From a virus (taxonomy: Duplodnaviria; Heunggongvirae; Uroviricota; Caudoviricetes), in the IMG/VR virus record IMGVR_UViG_3300009285_000002: 64,000 nucleotides of DNA. One strand, given 5' to 3'. Positions 52,238 to 57,151 of this stretch are shown here, piece after piece. Position 1 is the stretch's first letter. Every line of letters starts with the position of its first letter. Both the position numbers and the translations under genes were made by a program. Below the pieces are notes generated by a model, which saw only the letters and a program-made list of their open reading frames with translations, was not told where the DNA came from and ran no database searches.

Positions 52238-52320
52238 CCTAGTTAGTAAAAGTGTTGGTAGCTGACCTGACAGATACACGCCCTATGATATGACCATACG
52301 GACATAGGCAACTAACTTAT

Positions 52321-52404
52321 GGAGAGTGGCGTAAAGGCTACAAACATCTCTTGAAAAGATGGCTCGTGAGTAAAATCCGAAGGGTTCGATTCCTTCACTC
52401 TCCG
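52321..52404 (+). tRNA. tRNA-Ser(TGA), type II
   Basis: Acceptor GGAGAGT/ACTCTCC, anticodon stem CATCT/AGATG with loop CTTGAAA, long variable arm, and T arm AAGGGTTCGATTCCTTC. Confidence 0.5.
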
Positions 52405-52895: not shown

Positions 52896-52976
52896 GATCC
52901 GTTCCCGTACTGGCCACGCCTTCTAAGCGATAGGTGCATAATGGATAATGTGGGTTCGACTCCCACCGGGAACTCT
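52896..52976 (+). tRNA. tRNA-like element, possible degenerate tRNA (CCTTCTAAG suggests Arg-TCT)
   Basis: Perfect acceptor GTTCCCG/CGGGAAC and T arm GTGGGTTCGACTCCCAC. I could not fold a canonical D or anticodon arm by hand. Confidence 0.3.
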
Positions 52977-53091
52977 GTAAGTAACTATGGCACAACATAA
53001 CAAAAAGCGTTAAATATGGAAAGATCTAGGTTCGAGTCCTAGTGAGAGCACCTGTGGGAAGTATGATGTTCATCATACTTTAAGAGGAGAT

Positions 53092-53472
53092 ATGCCGAAC
53101 ATAAACTGCGAGGAAGCACATAAATATTTTAATGTTTTAGATGCCGAAACTGGTTTAGTAAGAAGCGTGCTAATACACAAAGAAGGGGACCATGAGTTTG
53201 TGCCATACTCTGTTCCAGTTACTTTTGAGCTTATTGATTCAACAATAACTGTTACTACTACTCCAGTAAGAATATGTGATGCGCTATGTAGTATAAAAAT
53301 ACGAATTCAGAACTCGTCTACAAATAGAAATGTGCTAATTGGAAACTCGGTATCGCAGCACATGGTAATATATCCAAAAGAAAGTTTAGAGATGTATATT
53401 GATGACCCGTCCAAGATATACATTAAGTCTGCATCTGGATCTGCTGTTGTAAATTGTTTAGTATACTGTTAA
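53092..53472 (+). CDS. hypothetical protein
   Basis: 126 aa with an AAGAGGAGATATG ribosome-binding site. Confidence 0.4.
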   Translation: MPNINCEEAHKYFNVLDAETGLVRSVLIHKEGDHEFVPYSVPVTFELIDSTITVTTTPVRICDALCSIKIRIQNSSTNRNVLIGNSVSQHMVIYPKESLEMYIDDPSKIYIKSASGSAVVNCLVYC

Positions 53473-53563
53473 TATAGTAAATGTGGGGTCACAAGTGCGG
53501 TCACGGAAAGATAACGTAAGAAAAGTAACTACTCCGTATAAATGTTCCTGCCCCCCGCATTAT

Positions 53564-53635
53564 ACATCTATAGTGTAATGGATAACACAGATGGCCACGG
53601 ACCATTTAATCCGAGTTCGAGTCTTGGTAGATGTA
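53564..53635 (+). tRNA. tRNA-Arg(ACG)
   Basis: Acceptor ACATCTA/TAGATGT, D stem GTGT/ACAC, anticodon stem GATGG/CCATT with loop CCACGGA, and T arm CCGAGTTCGAGTCTTGG. Confidence 0.5.
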
Positions 53636-53650
53636 TAAAGGAGAGAGTAA

Positions 53651-53908
53651 ATGATAAGTAAATCACAGGCAAGAAGAATCGACGAACAAAAAGGTACTGA
53701 AATCATTTTACGCAATCGCTGTCAATGTTCTGTATGTCTTGACATAATCGAAAGTAAATCACGTCACGACTTCGTACAGTGTCGTTGCAGGCGCATTTTC
53801 ACTGACGGCGGCACTGATTACATTCGCAGGGGCTTCACTGACCCCTCTGACTTGATTGACCTTACTGAAATGCAAGATTCTACCCTTGACACATCAGATA
53901 AAACATGA
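53651..53908 (+). CDS. hypothetical Cys-rich protein
   Basis: 85 aa with an AAGGAGAGAGTAAATG ribosome-binding site and a CQCSVC...CRCRR pattern. Confidence 0.4.
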   Translation: MISKSQARRIDEQKGTEIILRNRCQCSVCLDIIESKSRHDFVQCRCRRIFTDGGTDYIRRGFTDPSDLIDLTEMQDSTLDTSDKT

Positions 53909-54096
53909 TAAAATAGGACTAATAATGAAGATAAACAAAGCAGTAAAGCGAGACAGAAAGATATTCAAAAGAAAGAACGGAATGGTTGTTAGTGGAAAAA
54001 GCGTGTTCTTAATACAAAGAGAACATATTAAAAAAGCTGTTGCAGCAAAAAATAAATAGTGTGGCAGGTTACATTCCAGGACTTACTACACTATAT

Positions 54097-54167
54097 GGGC
54101 GTCTCGTATAAAGGGATTACAGTTGATTTGCAATCAACTTATTAGAGTTCGATTCTCTAGACGTCCA
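54097..54167 (+). tRNA. tRNA-Ala(TGC)
   Basis: Acceptor GGGCGTC/GACGTCC, anticodon stem GTTGA/TCAAC with loop TTTGCAA, and T arm TAGAGTTCGATTCTCTA. Confidence 0.55.
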
Positions 54168-54270
54168 CAAGGCTTACAGCACAAAGCGAAAACACATTAA
54201 AAGCAGATAAAATATGTTTTGCTACCTATACATATAAAAGAAAGATGTGCTGTAAGCTCTGCCATAACAT

Positions 54271-54339
54271 GGGTAATTCGTAATGGTAACGAACAATTCT
54301 CCAAAAATTGTTGAGTGGGTTCAATTCCTACATTGCCCG
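54271..54339 (+). tRNA. tRNA-Trp(CCA)
   Basis: Acceptor GGGTAAT/ATTGCCC, anticodon stem CAATT/AATTG with loop CTCCAAA, and T arm GTGGGTTCAATTCCTAC. The D arm is short. Confidence 0.45.
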
Positions 54340-54350
54340 CAATAGAAATA

Positions 54351-54426
54351 GCGTCCTTAGCTAAATTGGATAGTCAGCAGTTCCCTCTTAAGGAAAAGGT
54401 TGAGAGTTCGAGTCTCTCAGGGCGCA
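54351..54426 (+). tRNA. tRNA-Lys(CTT), tentative
   Basis: Acceptor GCGTCCT/AGGGCGC and T arm GAGAGTTCGAGTCTCTC. The anticodon arm has 4 bp plus a mismatch, with loop CTCTTAA. Confidence 0.4.
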
Positions 54427-54465
54427 CCTGTGCAAAAAAAACTTACTAAAAGGAGAGCAAATAAA

Positions 54466-54621
54466 ATGTTATTTTCACATAAAGAAAGTGGCCAAGGTCT
54501 TGTAGAGTATATAATGGTACTTGTAGCAGTTATAATTCTGGTCACTATAGCATTTCTACTACTTGGACCCTCTATCGGAAATATGTTTAGTTCACTAAAC
54601 TCCAGTCTGAACGGAATCTAA
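54466..54621 (+). CDS. Flp/Fap-type pilin-like micro-protein (class III signal peptide)
   Basis: MLFSHKESGQG-LVEYIMVLVAVIILVTIAF matches the Flp prepilin G/xxxEY cleavage motif followed by a hydrophobic helix. AAAAGGAGAGCAAATAAAATG ribosome-binding site. The track ORF 54400 starts earlier, inside the tRNA. Confidence 0.4.
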   Translation: MLFSHKESGQGLVEYIMVLVAVIILVTIAFLLLGPSIGNMFSSLNSSLNGI

Positions 54622-54629
54622 ACAAAGGT

Positions 54630-54818
54630 ATGCATATGGAAGATAAAACAAACAAACAAAACATGAAAATGCTTCTCGTGTATATTATGTCATTCTTTGC
54701 GTGTATAGTTATAGTGATGCTGATGAGCGTAATATTTGGCTTTGGACTTCCATCCACGGTAGTAAATCCGTATGATAGACCGGCATCGTCACTGTCATTT
54801 CACGATCATCGTTTATAA
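54630..54818 (+). CDS. small membrane protein
   Basis: 62 aa with transmembrane segment MLLVYIMSFFACIVIVMLMSVIFGF. Confidence 0.4.
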   Translation: MHMEDKTNKQNMKMLLVYIMSFFACIVIVMLMSVIFGFGLPSTVVNPYDRPASSLSFHDHRL

Positions 54819-54830
54819 AAAGGAGCGTCT

Positions 54831-54950
54831 ATGGAAATTTTATTCGCTGTATTACTACTAATGTTCTTCCTATTATTGGAGATAAAGAAAAGAAAGGATA
54901 CTCCGTATAAAGACTATGCAAGTGGGAAAGATAAAATGGACCCTAGAGAT
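54831..54950 (+). CDS. small membrane protein
   Basis: 39-aa ORF not in the supplied track. AAAAGGAGCGTCTATG ribosome-binding site. Transmembrane segment ILFAVLLLMFFLLL. Confidence 0.3.
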
Positions 54951-55036
54951 TAATTAACTAATACAACATTTGCAGTCCCGGTTATGACTATAAACTAAGA
55001 CCTGGCGACCTAGGCATGTCGGGTAAAACTGCCCAA

Positions 55037-55109
55037 TGCTCCTATATCTCAATGGTTAGAGAAATCGTCTTATAAGCGATGGGTTCTAGGTTCGACTCCT
55101 AGTGGGAGC
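55037..55109 (+). tRNA. tRNA-Ile(TAT), tentative
   Basis: Acceptor GCTCCTA/TGGGAGC, D stem TCTC/GAGA, anticodon stem ATCGT/GCGAT with loop CTTATAA, and T arm CTAGGTTCGACTCCTAG. Confidence 0.45.
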
Positions 55110-55196
55110 ACTTATAGCACACCGTACAAACACGTAATACGTTAACGGGGCATGTCCTGTGTGGGAAGATAACGTCGGTGTGTTATAAAAATTTGA

Positions 55197-55268
55197 TGCG
55201 GGTGGAAGGTAAGGCATCTTAATGGGCCCATAACCCATACAAACGGGATTCAATTTCCCGACCCGCTA
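55197..55268 (+). tRNA. tRNA-Met(CAT), initiator-like
   Basis: Anticodon stem ATGGG/CCCAT has three consecutive G-C pairs next to the loop CCCATAA. Positions 1:72 are an unpaired T:T above a 6-bp GCGGGT/ACCCGC stem. D stem AAGG/TCTT and T arm CGGGATTCAATTTCCCG. Confidence 0.5.
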
Positions 55269-55338
55269 CTAATTAGTACACGGTCACTTAATGACCTTAA
55301 ATGTAAGCGTATTCCGCTAACGACACGGGCGTGCTGAT

Positions 55339-55410
55339 GCGGGTATGGTGTAATGGTAACACAGAATTCTTCCAAAATTCTATTGTGAGTTCGAGTCCCA
55401 CTATCCGCTC
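55339..55410 (+). tRNA. tRNA-Gly(TCC)
   Basis: Acceptor GCGGGTA/TATCCGC, D stem GTGT/ACAC, anticodon stem GAATT/AATTC with loop CTTCCAA, and T loop GTTCGAGTCC. Confidence 0.55.
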
Positions 55411-55570
55411 TTATGAATCCAAGACAAACTAAACTAGGGTTTTATGCAGTAAAGTTATATAGCTTAGGCTATATTATATATCAGGTTTTTTTCAACGGAT
55501 CTAAGTTTATAAATGTTGACGGTGCAGAGTACGAATTTTCTGATATTCAGTATTTCTATGAGGAGTAAAT

Positions 55571-55723
55571 ATGGCTATATTTAATTGTACGTGCGTGCAT
55601 GAATTTCAAGATAAGACCTATGGGGCCGGAAAACGAGTTTTTAACCTTGGAAAGTCAAACTACAGATGCACGGTATGTAAGTCAACTAAGCCACTTTTGG
55701 GTAACGAAAAGAAAGTAGCTTAG
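55571..55723 (+). CDS. small zinc-ribbon protein
   Basis: 50-aa ORF not in the supplied track, with a GAGGAGTAAATATG ribosome-binding site. CTCVH...CTVC pattern. Confidence 0.3.
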   Translation: MAIFNCTCVHEFQDKTYGAGKRVFNLGKSNYRCTVCKSTKPLLGNEKKVA

Positions 55724-55748
55724 TAGTAGGCTAGTAGTTATATAACTT

Positions 55749-55835
55749 GGGTAGTCGGCGAAGTTGGAGGGTCGTACCTGACTGTAAATTAGGCTTCTTT
55801 ACAAGAACTAGCAGGTTCAAATCCTGCACTACCCA
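55749..55835 (+). tRNA. tRNA-Tyr(GTA), type II
   Basis: Acceptor GGGTAGT/ACTACCC, anticodon stem CCTGA/TTAGG with loop CTGTAAA, variable arm TTCT..AGAA, and T arm GCAGGTTCAAATCCTGC. Confidence 0.5.
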
Positions 55836-55919
55836 CTGTGTATAGGAAAGATATACACTTTCGTATAGGAACACTCTTTCTGAGCTTCTACCGGATAAGC
55901 TCACTAAACCCCGGTATAT

Positions 55920-56003
55920 GCATCTGTGTTGGAACTGGCAGACAAGCTGGTCTTAGAAACCAGTACCCTAAAAAGTGTGGAGGTTCAAATCCTCTCAGAT
56001 GCA
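55920..56003 (+). tRNA. tRNA-Leu(TAG), type II
   Basis: Acceptor GCATCTG/CAGATGC, anticodon stem CTGGT/ACCAG with loop CTTAGAA, long variable arm, and T arm GGAGGTTCAAATCCTCT. Confidence 0.5.
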
Positions 56004-56097
56004 CAAGCAAAGTACTTTGCTAGGAATATGTATGTACATGGGAAGGCTGAAACACTTTGACCCGTTGCCGGATACCATATCTCTGCATATTCCGTAC

Positions 56098-56172
56098 GCA
56101 AGCGTGAAGGGAATTGGCATACCTACTAAGCTCAAAACTTGGTGCATATTGGTTCAAATCCAATCGCTTGCA
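56098..56172 (+). tRNA. tRNA, anticodon uncertain (loop CTCAAAA read as CAA, but type-I length)
   Basis: Acceptor GCAAGCG/CGCTTGC and T arm ATTGGTTCAAATCCAAT. Anticodon stem CTAAG/CTTGG. Confidence 0.4.
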
Positions 56173-56247
56173 CAATGTACGTGTGTAGAGGTTCGATTCC
56201 TCTAAAAGTTGGTCAGGCACTATACTATCGTAGGTAACGTACATTAT

Positions 56248-56330
56248 GCTCTTGTGGCGGAACTAGGCAGACGCTGAGGACTTAAAATCCCCTTCCTTCG
56301 GGAGTGTGGGTTCGATTCCCACCTTGAGCA
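56248..56330 (+). tRNA. tRNA-Leu(TAA)-like, possibly impaired
   Basis: D region TGGCGGAACTAGGCAGACGC closely matches E. coli tRNA-Leu. Anticodon loop CTTAAAA, variable arm TCC-TTCG-GGA, and T arm GTGGGTTCGATTCCCAC. The acceptor GCTCTTG/CTTGAGC has two U:U mismatches. Confidence 0.4.
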
Positions 56331-56359
56331 CACTATAAAACAGTAAAAGGAGATAAAAA

Positions 56360-56575
56360 TTGACATCTATAGAATTCAAACTTAGCATCAAGCAATCAGT
56401 AAAAATAACCAATATTAACACTTTGGGTACAGTAATTGGCTACTATGTAGGTGATTCTGGTATTCAATACCAGGTTGCATATTTCTTAAATGGAGAGCGT
56501 AAAGTTATGTACCTATACGAAGAAGAGTTGGGAGATCCTAAAGAAGATACTGGGATTGGGTTTATTACTAAATAA
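56360..56575 (+). CDS. hypothetical protein
   Basis: TTG start with an AAAAGGAGATAAAAATTG ribosome-binding site. 71 aa. Confidence 0.35.
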   Translation: MTSIEFKLSIKQSVKITNINTLGTVIGYYVGDSGIQYQVAYFLNGERKVMYLYEEELGDPKEDTGIGFITK

Positions 56576-56713
56576 TAAAGGACACCGAGACATGATAAAA
56601 AGAATATTATGTGGTACTACAACTGAAAATGATGTATGGGGGGTGTTTTTCTATCTATTTATAGCACTTGCACTTGGCATACTTATAGGCTCTCTTTGAC
56701 GGTAAATTGCCTA

Positions 56714-56742
56714 TTGACAAATAGCATTAACTATGATATAAT
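56714..56742 (+). promoter_or_regulatory. sigma70-consensus promoter
   Basis: CTATTGACAAA context, 17-nt spacer, TATAAT at 56737-42. It lies in an AT-rich ORF-free stretch upstream of the 57152 gene. Confidence 0.55.
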
Positions 56743-57151
56743 ATGTATAAATTAAGCACTTGACATGGTGTTTATCCTAGGTTACTAGACCTTAATAACT
56801 AGCTCACTACCTACGAGTGGAGATGAGTATGAATGAATCCAATCACGGACATTCCTCTTCATAATGGCTAACTCGCTATCTTAATTTTGTTCGTGAATAG
56901 AAACTAGCGCAGCTTAGTTCTATTCAACTTACCTATTCATAAAAGGGGAAGATTAAACTAAATTTCTTTAGAGATTTTCTTAAGTACTTAAACATTAAAC
57001 CTTAAGAGCATATCTCCTAAACAATCTAACGATTGTTTATTAGAATTGTTAGATAATAGATTAGTAGCTAAGTAACATAATAAACAGTTAACTATATCTA
57101 ATACATATGTAAATTCTTGAACGAAAACCATTAATATACAAAAGGATAAAA

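What the first reader, a model, noticed from the sequence alone, without database searches (positions are those of the whole stretch)
54466..54950. Flp/Tad-type pilin-like micro-protein and two small membrane proteins embedded between tRNAs
The 51-aa ORF at 54466 reads MLFSHKESGQG|LVEYIMVLVAVIILVTIAF. This is the class-III prepilin pattern of Flp pilins (G/xxxEY followed by a hydrophobic helix) and it has a strong ribosome-binding site. Two further small transmembrane ORFs follow (54630, 54831), each with its own ribosome-binding site. A phage-borne Flp-like pilin could plug into a host Tad or type-IVb pilus machine, or act as a membrane-targeted toxin or immunity factor. Its placement inside a tRNA array is unusual.
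Basis: partly seen in the sequence, partly recalled or inferred. Interest (0 to 1): 0.6.

Follow-up and report, generated by a model that had tools for sequence, protein, structure and literature searches.

The report
Phage copy of host Tad pilin
A large groundwater phage carries, inside its tRNA gene array, a conserved 51-residue copy of the main subunit of its probable host's adhesive Tad pilus; the copy most likely enters the host pilus pathway, which would extend the recently described phage trick of pilin mimicry to a second pilus class.

Summary
ORF1 (54466-54621) is a real gene and a true Flp/Tad-type pilin homologue. It is 57-65% identical over its full length to the 51-aa Flp pilins of Anaerolineae (Chloroflexota). 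In those bacteria flp sits in an operon with cpaB, tadZ, cpaF, tadB and tadC. Pfam Flp_Fap misses the phage protein, but 52 of 52 relatives tested hit it, and an HMM built from them scores the phage protein 72.6 bits (E 8e-25). A second, diverged phage contig (L001) keeps ORF1 and ORF2 in the same tRNA-array position, with saturated synonymous change but pN about 0.27-0.29. ORF3 is an orphan. The window has no prepilin peptidase or Tad machinery, so the protein would depend on the host's. Leader, GQGLVEY motif and outward-facing C-terminal part look like the host's. The hydrophobic core is more diverged than in any of about 240 cellular relatives. Best reading is a pilin mimic that enters and probably perturbs the host Tad pathway, possibly for superinfection exclusion; this function is inferred, not shown. 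Two corrections: the canonical cleavage site is G9|Q10, not G11|L12, and ORF2 probably starts at 54636. This is a new variant of a known kind and moderately interesting.

The parts
54466..54621 (+). flp-like gene. 51-aa prepilin: 9-aa leader MLFSHKESG, predicted cut G9|Q10, Glu14 at mature +5 and Tyr15 at +6, hydrophobic helix 15-38, C-terminal LLLGPSIGNMFSSLNSSLNGI.
   Evidence: sequence; homologues in tad operons; family membership; purifying selection versus L001; register versus PDB 8U1K/8U2B; single helix 7-49, pLDDT 82.
54451..54455 (+). Shine-Dalgarno AGGAG for flp, 10 nt upstream of the ATG.
   Evidence: The L001 orthologue has AAGGAG 6 nt upstream.
54636..54818 (+). ORF2. 60-aa single-pass membrane protein (62 aa if started at 54630): Lys-rich N-terminus, TM about 12-38, conserved C-terminal DRPxxSxxFHDHR. 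Function unknown; syntenic partner of flp.
   Evidence: called from 54636; 52% identity to L001 1468-1650; pN 0.29, pS 0.80; no other homologue; hydropathy.
54831..54953 (+). ORF3. 40-aa ORF with a short N-terminal hydrophobic segment and a highly charged tail (8 K/R). Strong SD, but an orphan, so coding status is unproven.
   Evidence: In L001 this position holds tRNA-Leu and tRNA-Lys instead.
54351..54428 (+). tRNA-Lys(CUU), 37 nt upstream of flp. The same tRNA precedes flp in L001.
55038..55111 (+). tRNA-Ile(UAU), closing the three-ORF island.
53886..53914 (+). Near-consensus sigma-70-like promoter (TTGACA-17-TAAAAT, extended TG). It lies upstream of a 44-aa ORF, tRNA-Ala/Trp/Lys and the flp island, with no + strand terminator-like site from there to the end of the scanned region (58500). 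It is a candidate promoter of a mixed tRNA-mRNA transcript (inference).
54975..55037 (+). 63-nt non-coding stretch about 95% identical to L001, while neighbouring coding DNA is about 61% identical. Possibly a processing or leader element of tRNA-Ile(UAU); role unknown.
   Evidence: no significant fold; no Rfam hit.

Best explanation
ORF1 is a phage-borne homologue of the major Tad (Flp, type IVc) pilin of its probable host, an Anaerolineae-class Chloroflexota bacterium. It is a real gene kept under purifying selection. It is probably transcribed together with the phage tRNAs, which on processing would leave a short mRNA carrying flp, ORF2 and ORF3 (inferred). The phage has no pilus machinery, so the 51-aa prepilin would insert in the host membrane. 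The host TadV/CpaA-type prepilin peptidase would cut it after Gly9 to a 42-residue single-helix pilin, which would join the membrane pilin pool used by the host CpaF/TadB/TadC machine (inferred from conservation of leader, GQGLVEY and the C-terminal segment). Its outward-facing C-terminal part looks like the host's, but the filament-core helix is unusually diverged. I therefore think it acts as a mimic that co-assembles with, caps or jams host Tad pili, or titrates the peptidase, rather than as a simple spare subunit. The likely benefit is to make infected cells refractory to further pilus-dependent adsorption, that is superinfection exclusion and sparing of progeny. This is by analogy with phage-encoded FimU and PilA mimics. 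Approximate confidence per step: real gene and Flp-family homologue 0.9; uses the host Tad pathway 0.6; purpose is pilus interference or superinfection exclusion 0.35.
For: Identity. The closest cellular relatives are 45-65% identical over all 51 residues and almost all come from Chloroflexota/Anaerolineae. In at least 12 loci they lie in RR-HK-flp(1-3 copies)-cpaB-tadZ-cpaF-tadB-tadC operons, confirmed by Pfam as RcpC, REC+ParA, T2SSE and T2SSF. This cluster is described and transcribed in Anaerolineae (PMC4877987). 52 of 53 family members hit PF04964. An HMM of those 52 scores the phage protein 72.6 bits. A profile search finds 11,785 representative relatives. The best solved-structure matches are Caulobacter Tad pilins 8U1K and 8U2B. 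AlphaFold2 gives one helix, residues 7-49.

Real gene. The orthologue in L001 is in the same tRNA-array position, with pS 0.76 versus pN 0.27 and differences mostly at third codon positions (28 third versus 9 second). Its GC is 0.35, phage-like, against a mean of 0.48 for host flp genes.

Dependence on the host. No Peptidase_A24, T2SSE or T2SSF was found in any window ORF of 150 aa or more.

Mimic rather than spare part. Core residues 16-30 are 33% identical to the family consensus in both phage copies. The 83 distinct cellular sequences have mean 90% and minimum 60%, and 157 representative stretches have minimum 53%. The C-terminal part is typical, at 69-75% against a host mean of 70%. [quoted passage not shown]

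Recurrence. Eleven IMG/VR contigs carry flp-like genes, some next to tail-fibre, terminase or DNA-polymerase genes.

Precedent. Phage FimU and PilA homologues are incorporated into type IVa pili and block pilus-dependent phages; these include truncated 60-residue PilA copies in virulent phages (PMC12952977).
Against: Nothing here shows expression, cleavage, membrane insertion or any effect on pili. Pfam Flp_Fap does not hit the protein directly; only Flp1_like does, at 20.7 bits against a cut-off of 33.5. The host is inferred only from pilin similarity. No prepilin peptidase gene was seen within 8 kb of the host tad loci examined, so the processing enzyme is assumed rather than located. It is unknown whether this phage, or any Chloroflexota phage, uses Tad pili as receptor. 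A receptor-masking mimic would be expected to vary on the exposed C-terminal part, as P-FimU does, but here it is the buried core that varies. Core divergence could simply reflect relaxed constraint. Only two members of this phage lineage exist for comparison.
Confidence: 0.5

Rival explanations
1. It is a functional replacement or booster pilin. The phage supplies a working major subunit to keep or increase adhesive Tad pili on the infected cell. This would hold the filamentous host in flocs or biofilm where new hosts are dense, acting like an auxiliary host gene.
For: All positions that are invariant in the family are kept: G9, Q10, G11, V13, E14, Y15, G34, P35, G38. The length and C-terminal segment match the host's. 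flp is reported as the highly transcribed, apparently limiting gene of the Anaerolineae pilus cluster (PMC4877987).
Against: The filament-core helix is the most diverged among about 240 relatives, and it also differs between the two phage copies, with only 4 of 15 positions identical. That is hard to reconcile with precise packing against six neighbouring subunits. The benefit to a phage with replication genes and no integrase seen in this window is unclear.
Confidence: 0.15
2. It is a decoy substrate for the prepilin peptidase. It saturates or blocks the host TadV/PilD-type enzyme and so shuts down maturation of all class-III signal-peptide proteins (Tad pilins, pseudopilins, possibly competence or type IVa pilins), without itself being assembled.
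For: The parts under strongest constraint include the leader and GQGLVEY recognition motif, while the assembly core is free to drift. The gene sits in a presumably strongly transcribed tRNA array behind a near-consensus promoter.
Against: The C-terminal LLLGPxIGNxxSxxNSSL segment is not needed for peptidase recognition, yet it is also conserved. No precedent is known to me.
Confidence: 0.12
3. It is a pilin-derived membrane peptide recruited for a phage function unrelated to pili. Together with ORF2 and ORF3 it would act as a holin, antiholin or membrane-depolarising factor, or as a small toxin/immunity module.
For: Three consecutive small ORFs with hydrophobic segments each have their own SD. 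The core needs only to stay hydrophobic. In IMG/VR contigs L007 and L008 the flp-like gene follows tail-fibre genes, a place where lysis or moron genes often sit. ORF3 has a holin-like charged tail.
Against: Strict retention of the peptidase motif and the pilin C-terminal segment is not explained. Flp has no charged C-terminus, with no Lys or Arg after the helix. There is no endolysin nearby; the GH25 domain protein is about 53 kb away at the window's left edge. The neighbours in L007, L013 and L014 have no lysin domains. ORF3 is not conserved. There are no PADLOC or PHROG hits.
Confidence: 0.13
4. It is a passenger gene recently picked up from the host, with no selected function.
For: Phage tRNA arrays accumulate small accessory ORFs, and this array is full of them.
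Against: The orthologue is kept in the same position in a phage whose coding DNA is only about 61% identical, with pN well below pS. Its composition is phage-like. An intact start, SD and motif are present in both copies.
Confidence: 0.05

Closest known systems
Flp/Fap major pilins of Tad (type IVc) pili, Pfam PF04964, specifically the 48-55-aa Flp of Anaerolineae tad loci (flp-cpaB-tadZ/cpaE-cpaF-tadB-tadC; PMC4877987)
   Same: Same length (51 aa), the same 9-aa leader type (MLF..KE.G), an identical GQGLVEY motif and the same C-terminal LLGPxIGNxFSxxNSSL. Overall identity is 57-65%.
   Different: It is encoded by a phage, away from any tad gene and inside a tRNA array. Its hydrophobic core (residues 16-30) is only 33% identical to consensus and carries residues never seen in the host columns: I16, M17, A21, I23, T27, I28, F30. 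It falls below the Pfam threshold.
Caulobacter crescentus Tad pilin PilA (PDB 8U1K, 8U2B; PMC11067988)
   Same: Best solved-structure match by sequence (E 0.004-0.007). It is a single amphipathic helix with Glu at mature +5 and no globular domain. Caulobacter Tad pili are phage receptors.
   Different: The similarity is distant and limited to the EY-helix-LG region. The host phylum differs. The Caulobacter gene is cellular and linked to the cpa locus.
Phage-encoded pilin mimics P-FimU and P-PilA of Pseudomonas and Xylella phages (Sztanko et al., Cell Rep 2026, PMC12952977)
   Same: A phage carries a roughly 50%-identical copy of a host pilus structural subunit with no machinery of its own. Some are short N-terminal-helix-only PilA copies, and some are in virulent phages. 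The proposed or shown role is anti-phage defence by entering the pilus.
   Different: Those are type IVa pilus components of Proteobacteria, with diversity on exposed parts. This one is a Tad/Flp pilin of a Chloroflexota phage with diversity in the buried core. No function has been tested here.
Phage superinfection-exclusion proteins that disable type IV pili without being pilins (for example Zip acting on PilZ, bioRxiv 10.1101/2024.03.05.583538; review PMC11436027)
   Same: The proposed outcome is the same: the infected cell loses a pilus receptor (titles and abstracts only).
   Different: The protein families and the mode of action, which targets assembly factors, are unrelated. There is no sequence relationship.

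Membership tests
Flp/Fap Tad pilin (PF04964) | Flp motif: a short leader ending in Gly, then XXXXEY (G/XXXXEY), with Glu at mature +5. | tested here: met
   ...ESG9|Q-G-L-V-E14-Y15. G9, E14 and Y15 are invariant in 53 aligned members. The register matches the mature Caulobacter PilA chain, where Glu is residue 5.
Flp/Fap Tad pilin (PF04964) | A mature protein of about 40-60 residues consisting of one hydrophobic or amphipathic helix without a globular domain. | tested here: met
   The predicted mature protein is 42 residues. The apolar run spans 15-38. AlphaFold2 gives a single helix 7-49, mean pLDDT 82.
Flp/Fap Tad pilin (PF04964) | Match to the Pfam PF04964 profile at or above its gathering score. 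| tested here: not met
   No PF04964 hit at E up to 1. Only PF16982 Flp1_like hits, at 20.7 bits against a cut-off of 33.5.
Flp/Fap Tad pilin (PF04964) | Significant sequence homology to established family members. | tested here: met
   52 of the 53 aligned sequences hit PF04964 (E up to 0.01, best 1.9e-9), all except the window protein. An HMM of these 52 scores the window protein 72.6 bits, E 7.6e-25. phmmer gives E 2e-10 to 2e-5 against P0003-P0007 in a 5.8-billion-sequence search. JGI names relative P0010 'pilus assembly protein Flp/PilA'.
Flp/Fap Tad pilin (PF04964) | Genetic linkage to tad/cpa assembly genes (cpaF/tadA ATPase, tadB/C, cpaB/rcpC, tadZ/cpaE, prepilin peptidase). | tested here: not met
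   None is in the window. The feature is met for the cellular homologues: at least 12 Chloroflexota loci have flp directly upstream of cpaB-tadZ-cpaF-tadB-tadC.
Flp/Fap Tad pilin (PF04964) | Cleavage by a TadV/CpaA-type aspartic prepilin peptidase and polymerisation into a filament. | not testable with these tools
   This needs biochemistry. No peptidase gene was located in the window or within 8 kb of the host tad loci.
Phage-encoded pilin mimics (P-FimU / P-PilA type) | Encoded in a phage genome and homologous (about 50% identity) to a structural subunit of the host's pilus, without assembly genes. | tested here: met
   Phage context; 57-65% identity to tad-linked Flp; no machinery.
Phage-encoded pilin mimics (P-FimU / P-PilA type) | Incorporated into the host pilus and blocks adsorption of pilus-dependent phages. 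| not testable with these tools
   Shown experimentally for P-FimU only (PMC12952977).
Phage-encoded pilin mimics (P-FimU / P-PilA type) | Homologue of a type IVa pilus component (FimU or PilA). | tested here: not met
   The protein is of Tad/Flp type, with no type IVa pilin domain hit.
Holins | Small membrane protein with a charged, usually basic C-terminal tail, encoded next to an endolysin. | tested here: not met
   The Flp C-terminal flank has no K/R and net charge 0. No lysin lies in or near the tRNA array. There is no PHROG holin hit. ORF3 alone has a basic tail but is an orphan.

The most novel reading that the evidence does not exclude
A lineage of large tRNA-rich phages of Anaerolineae carries a core-remodelled Tad pilin that the host prepilin peptidase matures. 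It then poisons or caps host Tad pili, possibly with the conserved membrane partner ORF2. Its mRNA is released from a tRNA-mRNA co-transcript by tRNA processing. This would be the first phage-encoded Flp/Tad pilin with an anti-pilus (superinfection-exclusion) role, would extend pilin mimicry from type IVa to Tad pili and to Chloroflexota, and would imply that Tad pili are phage receptors in this phylum.
Probability: 0.3. Interest if true: 0.65.

Novelty: new variant of a known kind. Interest (0 to 1): 0.5.

Why it matters
Tad pili drive adhesion and floc or biofilm formation in filamentous Anaerolineae, which are abundant in aquifers, digesters and activated sludge, and almost nothing is known about their phages. 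A phage-carried Flp gives three things. It gives a host prediction for an otherwise unassignable phage. It hints that Tad pili are a contested surface structure, as receptor or defence target, in Chloroflexota. It also gives a natural 'variant pilin' whose core substitutions could show which helix contacts matter for Tad filament assembly. I found no paper describing a phage-encoded Flp pilin. The Flp-type proteins tested hit no PHROG family significantly. tblastn found no match in 50,697 deposited phage genomes, although that null is weak for such short hydrophobic queries. The concept of phage pilin mimicry itself was published for type IVa pili in 2026, so this is an extension rather than a new principle.

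Tried and rejected
Most of the following searches gave null results.

- Direct Pfam, NCBIfam, PHROG and PADLOC scans of the three ORFs gave only a sub-threshold Flp1_like hit for ORF1 and nothing credible for ORF2 or ORF3.
- Megablast of 53000-57000 against deposited phages gave no match. tblastn of three Flp queries against them also gave no match. The tblastn nulls are probably weakened by low-complexity masking.
- I looked for more members of the phage lineage. Exact scans with the conserved 63-nt element gave 0 hits in IMG/VR and JGI metagenomes. ORF2-pattern scans gave no confirmed relatives. A DNA polymerase scan gave one 38% relative without flp or tRNAs. ORF2 and ORF3 word-index searches returned only themselves.
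- All-versus-all comparison of neighbours of viral flp genes showed no conserved partner apart from ORF2 in L001. L007's polymerase is only 25-27% identical to the window's, so L007 is a different phage.
- Foldseek of the single-helix model against the PDB gave no hits, as expected for one helix.
- I tested whether host flp genes lie next to tRNAs, which would suggest co-capture. They do not in 59 of 60 loci.
- I looked for a prepilin peptidase near host tad loci by multi-TM filtering and a GGGD[VIALF][KR]-type motif and found none within 8 kb.
- The 63-nt conserved element has no significant fold, and Rfam reports only tRNAs in the array.
- The longer upstream starts for ORF1 (TTG at 54400; the 63-aa start in the same frame called in the JGI record, P0002) were rejected. 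The TTG start lies inside the tRNA-Lys gene and the other just downstream of it, neither has the SD, and relatives start at MLF.
Full report
**What is in the sequence.** The window is part of a large phage genome. It holds DNA polymerase A (58541-61189), a RecA/UvsX recombinase (61233-62249), tail proteins, an RlaP nucleotidyltransferase and other typical genes. It also holds 20 tRNA genes, all on the + strand, between 50632 and 58164. The three ORFs of the finding are present exactly as described.

- ORF1 is at 54466-54621, 51 aa, with AGGAG 10 nt upstream.
- ORF2 is at 54630-54818. The start shared with its only homologue, and used by gene callers, is 54636.
- ORF3 is at 54831-54953, behind AAGGAG.

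They fill the gap between tRNA-Lys(CUU) (54351-54428) and tRNA-Ile(UAU) (55038-55111). The identical 51-aa protein is found on independently assembled contigs from a groundwater metagenome project (PRJNA292723) and in a JGI metagenome. The arrangement is therefore not an assembly artefact.

Pfam Flp_Fap (PF04964) does not hit the protein. Only the related Flp1_like model does, below threshold (20.7 bits against a cut-off of 33.5). Homology searches settle the matter.

- A 5.8-billion-protein search returns 48-73-aa proteins 50-63% identical over the full length, three of them pre-annotated PF04964.
- A scan of one genome per prokaryotic species finds 446 confirmed relatives. The best 80 (45-65% identity, mostly all 51 residues) are almost all Chloroflexota, chiefly Anaerolineae/Anaerolineales.
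- Clustering their neighbours and checking representatives with Pfam shows a recurrent operon. It runs LuxR-type response regulator, histidine kinase, flp (1-3 tandem copies), cpaB/rcpC (PF16976), tadZ/cpaE-like REC-ParA ATPase, cpaF/tadA (T2SSE), tadB and tadC (T2SSF). It occurs in at least 12 loci.
- This is the Tad cluster already described and shown to be transcribed in Anaerolineae (PMC4877987).
- Of 53 aligned family members, 52 hit PF04964, and the only one that does not is the window protein. An HMM built from those 52 scores the window protein 72.6 bits, E 7.6e-25.
- A profile search of 1.84 billion representatives finds 11,785 relatives at E up to 1e-3.
- The best solved-structure matches are the Caulobacter Tad pilins 8U1K and 8U2B.
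- AlphaFold2 predicts a single helix, residues 7-49, mean pLDDT 82. Foldseek is uninformative for one helix.

ORF1 is therefore a bona fide member of the Flp pilin family by homology, although it fails the curated Pfam cut-off.

**A correction on the cleavage site.** The Flp motif is G/XXXXEY. The alignment to the mature Caulobacter chain, which starts at Ala15 of its prepilin with Glu as residue 5, puts the phage Glu14 at +5. The expected cut is therefore after Gly9 (MLFSHKESG|QGLVEY...). This gives a 42-residue mature pilin.

**Is it a real, selected gene?** Yes.

- A 2-kb contig from an NCBI metagenome assembly (L001) is a fragment of a related phage tRNA array with 8 tRNAs. It runs in the same order: tRNA-Trp, tRNA-Lys(CUU), flp, then the ORF2 homologue.
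- The L001 array has extra insertions: an 82-aa ORF, a tRNA-Ile(GAU) between flp and ORF2, and tRNA-Leu plus tRNA-Lys where the window has ORF3.
- DNA identity in the two genes is about 61%. Synonymous sites are saturated (pS 0.76 and 0.80), while pN is 0.27 and 0.29. Differences pile up at third codon positions.
- The gene's GC content (0.35) matches the phage (0.41), not host flp genes (mean 0.48) or host loci (mean 0.54). It is therefore a long-resident gene rather than a fresh capture.
- ORF2 shares this support: 52% identity, with conserved N-terminal Lys residues, TM segment and a C-terminal DRPxxSxxFHDHR motif. It has no other homologue anywhere I could search.
- ORF3 has only its SD to recommend it. 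It is an orphan and is absent from L001.

**Context and dependence on the host.** Every window ORF of 150 aa or more was covered by precomputed or fresh Pfam/PHROG scans. None carries a prepilin peptidase (Peptidase_A24), a T2SSE ATPase, a T2SSF platform protein or a CpaB domain. No second Flp-motif ORF exists in the window. Any pilin-like activity must therefore use host machinery. A near-consensus sigma-70-type promoter (53886-53914) lies upstream of a 44-aa ORF, three tRNAs and the flp island. No + strand terminator-like site follows from there to the end of the scanned region at 58500. From this I infer a mixed tRNA-mRNA transcript, from which tRNA processing would release the flp-ORF2-ORF3 message. 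In L001 flp is directly bracketed by two tRNAs. In an unrelated low-GC viral contig (L009) a tRNA-Thr starts 14 nt after flp. In cellular genomes flp is not associated with tRNA arrays. Small ORFs are interspersed all along this array, so the placement is a property of the phage's accessory region, not an oddity peculiar to flp.

**An unexpected feature.** Both phage copies keep the leader, the GQGLVEY motif and the C-terminal LLLGPxIGNxxSxxNSSL segment at host-like levels. Identity to the family consensus there is 0.69 and 0.75, against a host mean of 0.70. Their hydrophobic core (precursor residues 16-30) is only 0.33 identical to consensus. That is lower than all 83 distinct cellular sequences (mean 0.90, minimum 0.60) and all 157 representative stretches (minimum 0.53). 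It includes residues never seen in host columns. The two phage cores also differ from each other, with 4 of 15 positions identical by direct count on the sequences. [quoted passage not shown] The phage protein thus keeps what the peptidase and the outside world would see, and lets the assembly interface drift. Flp-like genes in other viral contigs (L007, L008, L010) have host-like cores, so this feature is specific to the tRNA-array lineage. The cellular comparison set was chosen by similarity to the query. This biases it toward similar sequences and does not weaken the outlier status.

**Mechanism.**
- Shown: homology, conservation, host-type features, absence of machinery.
- Inferred: the prepilin inserts in the host membrane, is cut by the host TadV/CpaA-type enzyme and joins the pilin pool of the CpaF/TadB/TadC machine.

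Given the altered core, I favour a mimic that perturbs assembly, as a co-assembling, capping or jamming subunit or as a peptidase competitor, over a plain spare subunit. The most plausible pay-off is making infected cells refractory to pilus-dependent adsorption. The closest precedent is the 2026 report that Pseudomonas phages encode FimU homologues that enter the type IVa pilus and block tip-binding phages. That report also finds PilA-like proteins in Xylella prophages and in virulent Pseudomonas phages, one family being N-terminal 60-residue truncations (PMC12952977). Tad pili are known phage receptors in Caulobacter (PMC11067988).

Several points count against the favoured reading. Nothing here shows expression or processing. 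The host assignment rests on pilin similarity alone. No Chloroflexota phage is known to use Tad pili. A receptor-masking mimic would be expected to vary on the exposed part, not in the core. The rivals are a booster pilin, a peptidase decoy, a pilin-derived holin or toxin acting with ORF2 and ORF3, and a neutral passenger. They are listed with their tests, and the last is disfavoured by the selection evidence.

**Recurrence and novelty.** Eleven IMG/VR contigs encode GQGLVEY-type Flp proteins with good ribosome-binding sites. Several sit beside hallmark phage genes: tail fibre in L007 and L008, DNA polymerase exonuclease subunit and tRNAs in L009, large terminase in L010. Neighbours are otherwise not conserved. 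This suggests repeated independent acquisition. The seven Flp-type proteins scanned gave no significant PHROG hit, tblastn finds nothing in 50,697 deposited phage genomes (a weak null), and full-text searches found no paper on phage-encoded Flp pilins. I rate this a new variant of a known kind: phage pilin mimicry, now for the Tad class and for Chloroflexota phages. It is of moderate interest (0.5).

Noticed in passing
window 54975-55037 (and L001 about 1900-1961): A 63-nt non-coding stretch directly 5' of tRNA-Ile(UAU) is about 95% identical between the two phages, while adjacent coding DNA is about 61% identical. It has no significant fold (z -0.72) and no Rfam family. It may be a tRNA leader or processing signal, or a protein-binding site.
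   Followed up: partly
window 54223-54249: The 27-nt sequence TACCTATACATATAAAAGAAAGATGTG just upstream of tRNA-Trp is identical in L001 and unique in the window. It may be a regulatory or processing element.
   Followed up: partly
window 52320-52404, 52901-52975, 52990-53051, 56189-56204: These T-arm-like repeats and weak tRNA-like covariance hits are not called as tRNAs by ARAGORN. The segment 53025-53051 is 93% identical to the 3' end of tRNA-Ile(UAU). They may be degenerate, split or unusual tRNA genes.
   Followed up: partly
window 25312-25932, 26960-28378, 57152-57925: The phage carries an RNA ligase (PF09414), a DUF2828/DUF7788 protein (PHROG 850, 'RNA-binding protein') and an RlaP nucleotidyltransferase, in addition to 20 tRNAs. 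Together these look like a tRNA supply-and-repair kit, perhaps against host anticodon nucleases.
   Followed up: no
proteins P0008 (182 aa) and P0009 (418 aa): The top-scoring representatives contain 2 and 5 tandem Flp-like stretches in one polypeptide, so they are possible multi-Flp polyproteins or unsplit tandem genes.
   Followed up: no
L016 5299-6180 and L017 5533-6150 (IMG/VR contigs): The flp reading frame stays open upstream into a multi-TM protein of unknown family, conserved between the two contigs. This is either a fusion or a missed internal start.
   Followed up: no
Chloroflexota loci L037, L038, L047, L053, L067, L069, L077 and others: In Anaerolineae the flp-tad operon is regularly preceded by a LuxR-type response regulator and a HisKA_3 histidine kinase that appears to lack TM segments (26 and 21 of 80 loci). 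This is a probable dedicated regulator pair of Tad pilus expression.
   Followed up: partly
window 53651-53908: An 85-aa Cys-rich DUF7695 protein (E 2e-22) is also embedded in the tRNA array, one of about ten small ORFs interspersed among the tRNAs.
   Followed up: no
window 54351-54428 and 55038-55111: The phage encodes a tRNA-Ile with a UAU anticodon, and a tRNA-Lys(CUU) that ARAGORN calls at 78 nt with the anticodon at position 37. These are unusual tRNA features that may repay a closer look.
   Followed up: no
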